A DNA stretch of 10,361 nucleotides, taken from positions 1 through 10,361 of the IMG/VR virus record IMGVR_UViG_2563366976_000003, one strand, 5' to 3'. Each line of letters starts with the position of its first letter. The first letter of the stretch is position 1. Made by a program: the position numbers and the translations under genes. Of this stretch, positions 284 to 768 are shown in pieces. This stretch comes from a virus (lineage: Duplodnaviria; Heunggongvirae; Uroviricota; Caudoviricetes). The notes beneath the pieces are model-generated. The model saw nothing but the letters and a program-made list of their open reading frames with translations, made no database searches and was not told where the DNA came from.

Positions 284-415
284 TCACCCCAGCAGCCCCG
301 ACGAAGACAACATCATCCAGGCCATGGAAAGAAAAAGAGCAACCAGCATTAGTGAAAATGAAATGCCGACAATTACACAGAGGATCTTCGCCAGCGTTAT
401 GAGTTTGTCTGACAT
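284..415 (-). CDS. hypothetical small hydrophobic protein (43 aa)
   Basis: ATG at 415-413 is preceded by a strong SD (GGGAGGA, about 6 nt spacing). Product [43 protein letters not shown] is one predicted transmembrane helix. It is the internal-start portion of track ORF 284..505. Coding status unverified. Confidence 0.35.
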
Positions 416-429
416 GCTTAATCCTCCCT

Positions 430-612
430 TCACGATTTCAACGCAATGACCAGTTTTGCCAGCCCATACAGCATCGGGGACACAGCAACACCGACCGCCA
501 CCCACTTAATGGCAAAAGCCAGTGCTCTGCTGATGTCATCAGTTACAGGCGCTTTCAGTTCAAGGCCGTTTTTCATAGTCAACCTCAACAGAATTCGTTT
601 ATACTTTTCCAT
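430..612 (-). CDS. hypothetical small protein (60 aa) with hydrophobic C-terminus
   Basis: Internal ATG (610-612) of track ORF 430..645, preceded by AGGGAG. Product [60 protein letters not shown]. Its stop lies 15 nt upstream of the next small ORF's start. Weak call. Confidence 0.3.
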
Positions 613-645
613 GTTCTCCCTTGCCTTATCCAAGGTCAGAAACAC

Positions 646-680
646 AAAACCCCGCTTGCAGCCAACAAACGGGGTTTTTA
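646..680. terminator. GC hairpin flanked by A-run and T-run (aaaaccccg / 15-nt loop / cggggtttt); candidate bidirectional intrinsic terminator between endolysin and the small ORFs
   Basis: Inverted repeat read directly: 646-654 pairs with 670-678, with T-rich sequence following on both strands. Confidence 0.45.
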
Positions 681-768
681 CTTTTATTCACTTAGGTTTT
701 GCCAGTTCTCAGGATTTCGTGTTATCCGTCCGCATTAGCCAACGTCATTTTTCAACAAAATATTCTGC

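What the first reader, a model, noticed from the sequence alone, without database searches (positions are those of the whole stretch)
284..768. Unusual 480-bp insert between endolysin and Rz carrying a hairpin and two small membrane-protein ORFs
Seen in sequence: R and Rz are usually adjacent, but here R is followed by a GC hairpin (646-680) and two tandem small ORFs (60 aa and 43 aa), each with a Shine-Dalgarno sequence and a hydrophobic segment, before Rz starts at 272. Inference: these may be lysis-timing modifiers, small membrane toxins, or exclusion factors, or the segment may be a remnant of a larger gene.
Basis: partly seen in the sequence, partly recalled or inferred. Interest (0 to 1): 0.45.

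Follow-up and report, generated by a model that had tools for sequence, protein, structure and literature searches.

The report
Small membrane-protein genes between endolysin and spanin
The gap between the endolysin and spanin genes of this Shiga-toxin-phage-like E. coli prophage holds a terminator hairpin and two real but uncharacterised small membrane-protein genes; these are common, swappable late-operon inserts, not a one-off oddity or a decayed gene.

Summary
All features are on the minus strand. The endolysin R (1302..769) is followed by a 90-nt 3' region and a terminator-like hairpin (678..646). Next come ORF1 (612..430, 60 aa; conserved internal start at 576 gives 48 aa), ORF2 (415..284, 43 aa) and Rz (ATG 272).

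The insert is not unusual. ORF1 DNA is in 1043 and ORF2 DNA in 1578 of 5426 complete E. coli genomes. ORF2 is in 276 phage records, including 933W, where it is unannotated.

Both ORFs look like real genes. ORF1 has pN/pS 0.18 and matches phrog_1115. ORF2 has pN/pS 0.47, matches phrog_4906 and is occasionally frameshifted. Both are predicted N-in single-pass membrane proteins with no Pfam, NCBIfam or PADLOC match.

The R-Rz gap is a mosaic cargo slot. It holds four small-TM-ORF families, antirepressor genes or a DNA methylase in different combinations. ORF1 relatives also sit beside tail-fibre and baseplate genes. They are nearly always preceded by a terminator-like hairpin, most with an SD-overlapping mini-hairpin, and abut the next gene in most contexts.

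Function is unknown. My best guess is that they are Q-dependent late inner-membrane accessory proteins, with the last small ORF passing ribosomes to Rz. A lysis role is unproven. Interest is moderate to low.

The parts
769..1302 (-). R, SAR-type lysozyme endolysin (177 aa)
   Evidence: PF00959, E 3e-24. 94% identical to the 933W R protein, which PMC9239132 lists as a SAR endolysin. The N-terminal segment is weakly hydrophobic and rich in Ala and Gly.
679..768 (-). Conserved 3' untranslated region of R (90 nt)
   Evidence: Shared at about 90% identity with Stx1 and Stx2 phages that carry different downstream cargo.
646..678 (-). Intrinsic-terminator-like hairpin, followed by a U-rich run (645..636)
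   Evidence: Found by the terminator scan. dG is -21.6 on the sense strand and -14.3 on the + strand; z = -4.7. 96.8% of cells are paired across 12 variants, and 2 pairs show compensatory changes. Ant-type loci carry a different terminator hairpin at the same place.
619..635 (-). Small leader hairpin CCUUG-N7-CAAGG; its 3' arm overlaps SD1 (AAGGGAG, 622..616)
   Evidence: Seen in the fold. The same 5-bp stem with 7-nt loop occurs in Salmonella (L089) and in distant cassettes L106a, L106b (CCUAU/AUAGG) and L102 (UCUG/CAGA), with compensatory changes.
430..612 (-). ORF1, 60 aa from ATG 612. A second, family-wide conserved start at ATG 576 (SD GAGG, 586..583) gives a 48-aa core.
   Evidence: phrog_1115, E 1e-42. 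pN/pS 0.18; variable sites 14/5/36 by codon position. The internal SD and the MKNG start are conserved in all lineages. AF2 predicts two helices, 2-18 and 23-59. The TM segment is about residues 38-56, with 8 K/R on the N side.
284..415 (-). ORF2, 43-aa single-pass membrane protein with a strong SD (AAGGGAGGA, 430..422)
   Evidence: phrog_4906, E 2e-23. Full-length and open in 276 phage records at 65-100% identity. pN/pS 0.47, the lowest of the six frames. KD mean 2.89. Frameshifted in 8 of the 88 loci examined.
1..272 (-). 5' part of Rz (i-spanin); runs off the start of the window
   Evidence: PGAP calls it 'lysis protein' in the identical locus L001. The full-length protein is PF03245, E 2e-49. 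Its ATG lies 11 nt after the ORF2 stop, and no well-spaced SD is visible.
576..605 (+). Promoter-like match on the opposite strand (TAGTCA-18-TATACT). Weak lead only.
   Evidence: One search found 2 promoter-like sites where 3.0 are expected by chance. The site lies inside the ORF1 N-terminal extension, so its conservation cannot be separated from coding constraint and SD2.

Best explanation
The 496-bp R-Rz spacer is a modular cargo slot in the Q-dependent late operon of a Stx-phage-like, stx-less lambdoid prophage.

**What is shown**
- The spacer opens with the conserved R 3' region and an intrinsic-terminator hairpin.
- It then carries two genuine small genes.
- ORF1 belongs to a family of 42-64-aa proteins predicted to be N-in and tail-anchored. 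In most contexts these genes come as a cassette, in this order: terminator-like hairpin, a mini-hairpin overlapping a first SD, a first start, about 11 mostly basic codons that contain a second SD, and the conserved MK(N/D)G start.
- ORF2 is a 43-aa predicted N-in single-pass peptide. In E. coli phages it sits directly upstream of PF03245-type Rz in most loci examined.

**What is inferred**
- Neither gene has room for its own promoter, and both lie behind a terminator. They would therefore be made only from the Q-antiterminated late transcript, and would insert into the inner membrane in the minutes before lysis.
- The last small ORF ends no more than 11 nt before the Rz start codon, and Rz has no well-placed SD. 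Ribosomes finishing ORF2 probably re-initiate on Rz. This would restore the R-Rz translational coupling that an insertion would otherwise break.
- The peptides are most likely dispensable accessory membrane factors of the late stage. They might tune the pinholin, SAR-endolysin or spanin steps, or otherwise condition the membrane. They are not core lysis proteins.
For: **Position in the late operon**
- Co-oriented with Q, S, R and Rz.
- Only 33 nt separate the hairpin from ATG 612, and no sense-strand promoter was found.

**The hairpin**
- It is stable and structurally conserved.
- Where the cargo differs, an analogous terminator replaces it.

**Real genes**
- PHROG families match.
- pN/pS is 0.18 for ORF1 and 0.47 for ORF2, each the lowest of the six frames.
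- The genes are present in induced or plaque-forming phages PhiR5 and PhiR12.
- ORF2 is present in 276 phage genomes.
- Prevalence is 1043 and 1578 of 5426 complete genomes.

**Modularity of the slot**
- 54 distinct R-Rz intervals were found in 88 loci. They combine ORF1, ORF2, a 28-aa ORF1 paralog, a 40-aa ORF, Ant or a methylase.

**Coupling to Rz**
- The stop-to-ATG distance is 11 nt in the window and 1 nt for module C-Rz.
- It is 10 nt in Salmonella ORF1-Rz, 7 nt in Stx phages and 2 nt in L102 and L106.
- In K-12 Qin, which has no insert, R and Rz overlap.

**Cassette architecture**
- It recurs in unrelated contexts, with compensatory changes in the mini-hairpin.

**Topology**
-.
Against: - There is no expression or phenotype data. 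The one EHEC Ribo-seq study consulted (PMC4765031) gave no sign of phage induction in the passages read, and the rows of its gene table that I read show nothing at my rough estimate of this position in EDL933.
- ORF1 relatives occur with lambda-type holin plus a GH19 endolysin, and outside lysis cassettes beside tail-fibre and baseplate genes. A lysis-specific partner is therefore unlikely.
- K-12 Qin lacks the insert and, from general knowledge, so do lambda and phage 21. The insert is therefore dispensable.
- ORF2 is only weakly constrained and is frameshifted in some prophages. Its sequence may matter little beyond being hydrophobic and open.
- Translational coupling is inferred from spacing alone.
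- A terminator in front of a gene in a myophage baseplate cluster (L102) is not obviously explained by Q-type antitermination.
Confidence: 0.4

Rival explanations
1. The ORFs are moron-type cargo unrelated to lysis. They would be small inner-membrane proteins that benefit the lysogen or the infected cell, for example by superinfection exclusion, blocking DNA entry or interfering with a host membrane protein. They simply ride in a permissive recombination slot.
For: - The same slot carries clear non-lysis cargo: P22_AR_N or ANT antirepressors and an N6_N4 DNA methylase.
- ORF1 relatives sit at other classic moron sites: after tail-fibre assembly genes, at a prophage end, and in a baseplate cluster.
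- Presence and absence are mosaic, and paralogs occur in tandem.
Against: - No promoter is available between the terminator hairpin and the ORFs, so expression in a lysogen is not expected.
- PADLOC gives no match.
- The tight abutment to the downstream late gene looks like integration into late-operon translation, not an autonomous unit.
Confidence: 0.3
2. The ORFs are mostly spacer or coupling ORFs. The peptides themselves have little function. The frames, ORF2 above all, are kept open and hydrophobic only because they deliver ribosomes to Rz after insertions separated it from R.
For: - ORF2 pN/pS is 0.47, and the antisense shadow frame scores 0.55.
- Frameshifted ORF2 alleles persist in 8 of 88 loci.
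- Whatever ORF precedes Rz ends within 11 nt of its ATG.
- The RWW* endings of paralogs spell GGTGGTGA or GGTGGTAG, which is SD-like for the next gene.
Against: - ORF1 is under clear purifying selection at the protein level: 0.18, with 22 invariant residues across Escherichia and Salmonella.
- The ORF2 N-terminal 30 residues and the W33 position are conserved at 65% overall identity across 276 phages.
- A coupling ORF need not be a transmembrane helix.
Confidence: 0.15
3. ORF1 is the toxin of a type I toxin-antitoxin-like module. An antisense RNA of about 75 nt would start at the + strand promoter-like site (576-605) and end at the hairpin, which has a strong T-run on the + strand. This RNA would mask the ORF1 SD and start codon.
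For: - The geometry fits.
- The + strand T-run is TTTTTACTTTTATT.
- The TATACT hexamer is conserved in divergent cassettes.
- ORF1 is a small hydrophobic peptide with a structured leader.
Against: - Promoter-like sites are at the chance level: 2 found, 3.0 expected.
- The conserved hexamer lies in coding sequence next to SD2.
- The hairpin is much more stable on the sense strand because of G-U pairs: -21.6 against -14.3.
- No Rfam antitoxin or other family matches: the best hit is the rimP leader at E 0.07, below its threshold.
- ORF1 has no promoter of its own.
Confidence: 0.05

Closest known systems
Morons (extra genes inserted between late-operon genes of lambdoid phages), e.g. lambda bor and lom or HK97 gp15. 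This is from general knowledge; the moron concept is cited in PMC4104026.
   Same: - Small accessory genes occupy a permissive intergenic slot of the late operon.
- Their distribution among related phages is mosaic, and they are often membrane proteins.
- The same slot holds other cargo (ant, methylase) in sister phages.
   Different: - Classical morons carry their own promoter and a downstream terminator, and are expressed in the lysogen.
- Here the terminator is upstream and no promoter is evident.
- The ORF is translationally abutted to the next late gene.
Dual-start holin/antiholin genes with an upstream RNA stem-loop (lambda S107/S105 with the sdi structure; phage 21 S71/S68). From general knowledge.
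   Same: - ORF1 has two in-frame starts, 12 codons apart, each with its own SD.
- The longer form adds a net positive N-terminal extension ([12 protein letters not shown]).
- A small stem-loop overlaps the first SD.
- ORF1 is a small membrane protein in a lysis cassette.
   Different: - There is no significant sequence relationship to the resident pinholin (hhalign probability 0.57%) and no holin Pfam family match.
- ORF1 has one C-terminal TMD and almost no periplasmic or C-terminal charged domain.
- The cassette already has a complete pinholin.
- ORF1 relatives occur away from lysis genes.
- Use of both starts is untested.
Mu gp25 releasin (DUF2730), a membrane-tethered protein needed to release a SAR endolysin (PMC9239132).
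   Same: A small single-TMD protein encoded within a few genes downstream of a SAR endolysin.
   Different: - The releasin is 99 aa, N-out/C-in, with a 73-aa acidic cytoplasmic domain, and belongs to DUF2730.
- ORF1 and ORF2 are 43-60 aa, predicted N-in, basic or neutral, and have no DUF2730 match.
- ORF1 also accompanies a GH19 endolysin.
Type I toxins of E. coli (Hok, Ldr, TisB, Ibs, ZorO). From general knowledge.
   Same: Hydrophobic single-helix peptides under 60 aa with structured 5' leaders.
   Different: ORF1 and ORF2 have no own promoter, no supported antisense RNA and no Rfam antitoxin match. They are embedded in a polycistronic late operon.

Membership tests
Pinholin / SAR-endolysin / two-component spanin lysis cassette (the context, not the ORFs) | A class II P21-type holin, a lysozyme with an N-terminal SAR-like segment, and Rz, all co-oriented | tested here: met
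   - PF04971, E 2e-32, and PF00959, E 3e-24.
- R is 94% identical to the 933W R protein, which is listed as a SAR endolysin in PMC9239132.
- Rz is PF03245, E 2e-49.
PHROG phrog_1115 / phrog_4493 (ORF1) and phrog_4906 (ORF2), phage protein families of unknown function | A significant match to the profile HMM | tested here: met
   E-values are 1.4e-42, 2.6e-30 and 2.1e-23. The 28-aa module C and distant members also match phrog_4493.
Holin / antiholin | Sequence membership of a holin family | tested here: not met
   No holin Pfam family at E <= 1. Against the resident pinholin family, hhalign probability is 0.57%.
Holin / antiholin | Lethal hole formation or control of lysis timing | not testable with these tools
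   This needs induction and lysis-curve experiments.
Releasin (DUF2730) | DUF2730 domain, N-out/C-in topology and a long acidic cytoplasmic domain | tested here: not met
   No Pfam match. The ORFs are 43-60 aa with K/R on the N side. The defining features are taken from PMC9239132.
Moron (classical definition) | An autonomous transcription unit: own promoter upstream and terminator downstream, expressed in the lysogen | tested here: not met
   The terminator-like hairpin is upstream. Only 33 nt separate it from ATG 612. No sense-strand promoter-like site was found. Expression itself is not testable here.
Moron (loose sense: extra, dispensable gene inserted between late genes) | Presence or absence among otherwise collinear phages at the same junction | tested here: met
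   K-12 Qin has R and Rz overlapping. 54 interval variants carry different cargo.
Type I toxin-antitoxin | An antisense or divergent sRNA antitoxin with its own promoter and terminator, and a toxin with its own promoter | tested here: inconclusive
   One + strand promoter-like site exists, at the chance level. No Rfam match. The hairpin is more stable on the sense strand. No transcript data.
Known anti-phage defence proteins (PADLOC) | A match to a defence-system HMM | tested here: not met
   0 families at E <= 1.

The most novel reading that the evidence does not exclude
The ORF1 family would be a previously unrecognised, widely mobile 'late-operon mini-cassette'. Its parts are a terminator hairpin, an SD-occluding mini-hairpin and a dual-start tail-anchored membrane peptide, fused translationally to the next late gene.

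Its two isoforms would act as a portable regulator of membrane events at the end of infection. For example, they could form an antiholin/holin-like timing pair, or modulate the pinholin or the spanin through TMD-TMD contacts. ORF2 would be a second, Rz-linked membrane factor that has been missed in the reference Stx phages, including 933W.
Probability: 0.15. Interest if true: 0.7.

Novelty: new member of a known kind. Interest (0 to 1): 0.35.

Why it matters
Lysis cassettes of Stx-type phages control when Shiga toxin and progeny phage are released. Their textbook parts list is holin, endolysin and spanin.

Two conserved small membrane-protein genes sit inside that cassette in roughly a fifth to a third of complete E. 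coli genomes. One of them is unannotated in 933W. This means the parts list is incomplete.

If either peptide tunes lysis timing or spanin expression, it would affect toxin release and phage yield. If they do nothing for lysis, they are still a clean example of how small ORFs colonise late operons while preserving translational coupling to the downstream gene.

The recurring unit of hairpin, mini-hairpin and dual-start ORF is a concrete, testable regulatory design.

Tried and rejected
- **Decayed fragment of a known gene: rejected.** There is no Pfam, NCBIfam or PADLOC match. The frames are intact and under purifying selection.
- **Coding on the + strand (ORFs 207..449 and 446..832): rejected.** These are shadow frames that share third codon positions with ORF2 and ORF1. 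They score worse and span non-homologous junctions.
- **Known sRNA in the R 3' region or hairpin: none found.** Rfam gives nothing at gathering score. The best sub-threshold hit is the rimP leader, E 0.07. The Pas, AgvB and AsxR sRNAs map elsewhere, between the esterase and the holin or downstream of stx.
- **Releasin: rejected**.
- **ORF2 as a duplicated Rz N-terminal TMD: not supported.** 80-862 of 1000 shuffles score as well.
- **ORF1 TMD resembling pinholin TMD2.** BLASTP finds 7 of 16 identities and 5 of 1000 shuffles score as well, but hhalign probability is 0.57%. I treat this as chance between TMDs.
- **GTDB genome-contig scan with the ORF1 profile: found nothing**.
- **Literature: no hits.**
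  - A full-text search for the peptide strings and WP accessions returned no papers.
  - Searches for phrases about the R-Rz interval returned no paper whose title or abstract bears on it.
  - The rows of the EHEC Ribo-seq table that I read do not cover this site.
- **Structure.** The AF2 model of ORF1 is just two helices, so I ran no fold search.

Full report
**Context.** The whole window is one minus-strand late region of a lambdoid prophage.
- In order it carries DUF968, RusA, the Q antiterminator (8272..7577), a Ser/Thr kinase and a PP2C phosphatase.
- These are followed by tRNA-Met, tRNA-Arg and tRNA-Arg, and then two STnc100 sRNA copies.
- Then come a SASA-type esterase (4214..2361), a P21-type class II holin (2210..1995, PF04971) and a YdfR/DUF1327 protein.
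- The region ends with the lysozyme R (1302..769, PF00959), the interval in question, and Rz.
- R is 94% identical to the R protein of phage 933W. The phage Mu lysis paper lists that protein as a SAR endolysin (PMC9239132).
- This is therefore a Stx-phage-like late operon without stx. It has a pinholin and an endolysin closely related to a known SAR endolysin.

**Checking the observation.**
- The hairpin is at 678..646 on the sense (minus) strand. It has 14 pairs including G-U, dG -21.6 kcal/mol and z = -4.7, and is followed by UUUUGUGUUU. On the + strand only 12 pairs form, with dG -14.3. The structure therefore belongs to the lysis-gene transcript.
- ORF1 runs from 612 to 430 (60 aa). Its ATG is at 612-610, and the SD AAGGGAG is at 622-616.
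- ORF2 runs from 415 to 284 (43 aa). Its SD AAGGGAGGA is at 430-422.
- Rz starts at 272, as PGAP annotates in an identical chromosome segment. The full-length protein there is PF03245.

**Is the insert unusual?** No.
- The 551-bp segment is found at >=80% coverage in 990 of 5426 complete E. coli genomes.
- ORF1 DNA alone is in 1043 genomes and ORF2 DNA alone in 1578, with up to 7 copies per genome.
- The same segment is in Escherichia phages PhiR5_2 and PhiR12_1 to PhiR12_5, which were deposited with K-12 and E. coli C hosts.
- ORF2 homologs are full-length at 65-100% identity in 276 phage records. These include Min27, BP-4795 (annotated as ORF50), PA2, phi191 and 933W. In 933W the ORF (MMGWLMISDKLITLVKSLCVLVGISFLVMLVAIFFSTAWRVLTLSGLVG) lies in an unannotated ant-Rz gap.
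- R-Rz adjacency is seen in K-12 Qin. It is not typical of this phage group.

**Are the ORFs genes?**
- ORF1 matches phrog_1115 (E 1e-42) and ORF2 matches phrog_4906 (E 2e-23). Both families have unknown function. Pfam, NCBIfam and PADLOC give nothing.
- Database relatives are confined to Escherichia and Salmonella, plus a few metagenomic and unplaced contigs. All are called hypothetical.
- Across 15 distinct ORF1-core alleles, variable sites fall 14/5/36 by codon position. pN/pS is 0.18, the lowest of the six frames.
- Across 18 ORF2 alleles, pN/pS is 0.47. This is again the lowest frame, but only just below the antisense shadow frame at 0.55.
- ORF2 carries frameshifts in 8 of 88 loci.
- ORF1 is therefore clearly a constrained protein-coding gene. 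ORF2 is probably one, under relaxed constraint of the kind expected for a bare transmembrane helix.

**Which start does ORF1 use?**
- Family alignments show a conserved core beginning at the internal Met (MKNGLE.DAPV.....A.AFAIKW.AVG...).
- A GAGG or GGAGG motif sits 5-6 nt upstream of that Met in every lineage, even where the encoded residues differ (LRL against VEA).
- In Salmonella the first ATG opens an 8-codon out-of-frame mini-ORF instead.
- Yet distant members keep an in-frame basic extension, with synonymous differences: MNVRRFLLRLS-MKNG and MKLYRKFFRMRLS-MKDG.
- Both a 60-aa and a 48-aa product are therefore plausible.

**Predicted topology.**
- AF2 predicts two helices in ORF1, at 2-18 and 23-59, with mean pLDDT 75.
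- The most hydrophobic 19-mer of ORF1 is residues 38-56. There are 8 K/R on the N side and only 4 residues after it, which implies a tail-anchored, N-in protein.
- ORF2 has a strongly hydrophobic helix at about residues 11-36. Two lysines precede it and an uncharged 14-residue tail follows it.

**The R-Rz gap is a cargo slot.** I anchored on the end of R and the start of Rz in 88 loci and found 54 distinct intervals of 307-1433 bp. They combine these modules:
- ORF1 and ORF2.
- A 28-aa ORF, MSAEFIRAMAFAIRIVAIAVLVWAIRWW. It is homologous to the ORF1 family (0 of 1000 shuffles score as well; it matches phrog_4493).
- A 40-aa ORF, MAALIDFSKLIRELRLMISQLPNWKFLLVWSIPFLWVVSQ (phrog_6632).
- P22_AR_N or ANT antirepressor genes.
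- In one type, an N6_N4 DNA methylase.

The architectures seen include ORF1-ORF2 (this window, the commonest in the sample) and ORF1-28aa. Others are ORF1-ORF2-truncated ORF1-28aa, 40aa-ORF2-truncated ORF1-28aa and Ant-ORF2. There are also decayed remnants in a Stx2a phage.

**ORF1 relatives elsewhere.**
- In Salmonella an ORF1 homolog sits alone directly before Rz. It does so behind a pinholin and lysozyme with an antirepressor gene in between, and behind a lambda-type holin plus a GH19 endolysin. In a third locus it follows another holin type and no Rz was called after it.
- ORF1 relatives also lie outside lysis cassettes. One is after tail-fibre assembly genes, and one is at a prophage end as a tandem pair of paralogs. 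A 42-aa member sits in a myophage baseplate cluster immediately before the sheath-initiator gene.

**A recurring cassette.** Nearly every ORF1-family gene I looked at is preceded by a terminator-like hairpin with a U-run. The one exception is the second of the two tandem paralogs in L086. The hairpin sequences differ between contexts.
- In five contexts a second small hairpin follows, with 5 bp and a 7-nt loop. Its 3' arm overlaps the first SD.
- The stems are CCUUG/CAAGG (window, Salmonella, L106a), CCUAU/AUAGG (L106b) and UCUG/CAGA (L102). These are compensatory differences, read.
- In most contexts the ORF stop abuts the next gene: 11 nt to Rz here, 1-2 nt for the RWW* forms, and 10 nt in Salmonella. 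The RWW* endings spell GGTGGTGA or GGTGGTAG.
- The large hairpin after R is itself conserved. 96.8% of cells are paired over 12 variants, with two compensatory pairs.
- In Ant-type loci it is replaced by an unrelated terminator hairpin at the same position.

**Interpretation.** The following are shown:
- real small membrane-protein genes, co-oriented with the late operon;
- their position behind a terminator, with no room for a promoter;
- a modular distribution;
- a conserved leader architecture;
- tight abutment to the downstream gene.

The following are inferred:
- expression only from the Q-antiterminated late transcript;
- translational hand-over from the last small ORF to Rz, which has no well-spaced SD;
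- an accessory, dispensable role in the inner membrane late in infection.

I put about 0.4 on that composite reading. A direct effect on pinholin, SAR-endolysin or spanin function is possible but unproven. The generic moron reading (about 0.3) is favoured by the non-lysis cargo in the same slot and by ORF1 relatives next to tail genes. It is disfavoured by the missing promoter. A pure spacer or coupling role (about 0.15) fits ORF2 better than ORF1. A type I toxin-antitoxin reading (about 0.05) rests on a single promoter-like match at the chance level and is contradicted by the strand asymmetry of the hairpin.

**Comparison with known systems.**
- The ORFs are not holins by sequence.
- They are not the DUF2730 releasin of Mu.
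- They are not known defence proteins.
- They are not classical morons, because the terminator is on the wrong side and there is no promoter.
- The dual start plus an SD-proximal stem-loop recalls the lambda S and phage 21 S holin/antiholin design. I recall that resemblance from general knowledge. It is a lead, not a test.
- No paper in the searchable library mentions these peptides.

**Verdict.** This is a correct observation of an ordinary, widespread but functionally uncharacterised feature. The novelty is modest. The points worth following up are an overlooked conserved small ORF in Stx-phage lysis cassettes, and a recurrent mini-cassette design of hairpin plus dual-start small ORF.

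Noticed in passing
window 4437-4646 and 4924-5114 (minus strand): There are two tandem copies of the prophage sRNA STnc100 (Rfam RF02076, 165 and 136 bits). They lie between the tRNA cluster and the esterase, where stx sits in Stx phages. A 2026 preprint relates STnc100 to the PasD sRNAs of pathogenic E. coli.
   Followed up: partly
window 5190-5439 (minus strand): A cluster of three tRNA genes, Met(CAT), Arg(TCG) and Arg(TCT), lies downstream of Q. From general knowledge, this resembles the tRNA cluster that lies upstream of stx in 933W-type phages.
   Followed up: partly
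window 5926-7505 (minus strand): A eukaryote-like Ser/Thr kinase (PF00069, E 2e-33) and a PP2C phosphatase (PF13672) lie directly downstream of the Q antiterminator.
   Followed up: no
window 1408-1680 (+ strand): A 90-aa ORF (phrog_2411, E 1e-58; annotated as hypothetical by PGAP) lies on the opposite strand between YdfR and R, inside the lysis cassette. It overlaps the 3' end of ydfR by 35 nt.
   Followed up: no
L101 (phage 933W, NC_000924) 2421-2570, i.e. record 27420-27569: The ORF2 homolog lies in the ant-Rz gap of the reference Stx2 phage 933W and is not annotated there. The same is true of many Stx-phage records ('none' under the match).
   Followed up: yes
L034 / L022, R-Rz interval (1433 bp): A 311-aa N6_N4 DNA methyltransferase gene (PF01555, E 1e-32) is inserted between ORF2 and Rz and ends 5 nt before the Rz start. 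This shows that the slot accepts large non-lysis cargo.
   Followed up: partly
L106 240-740; L105 465-830; L086 2735-3170: ORF1-family genes occur as tandem paralogs, or next to a 32-aa WKFLL...RWW ORF whose start overlaps the previous stop (ATGA). In L106 each tandem unit has its own upstream terminator-like hairpin. In L086 only the first of the two paralogs does.
   Followed up: partly
window 430-612 compared with 1998-2210 (minus strand): The ORF1 TMD ([16 protein letters not shown]) weakly resembles TMD2 of the resident pinholin ([15 protein letters not shown]): 7 of 16 identities. A profile-profile comparison does not support it (probability 0.57%).
   Followed up: yes
window 2210-2288 (minus strand): The holin reading frame stays open for 26 codons upstream of the annotated 71-aa start, giving a 97-aa ORF from ATG 2288. 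A terminator-like hairpin (2278..2250) lies inside that extension, so the 71-aa form is probably the real one.
   Followed up: no
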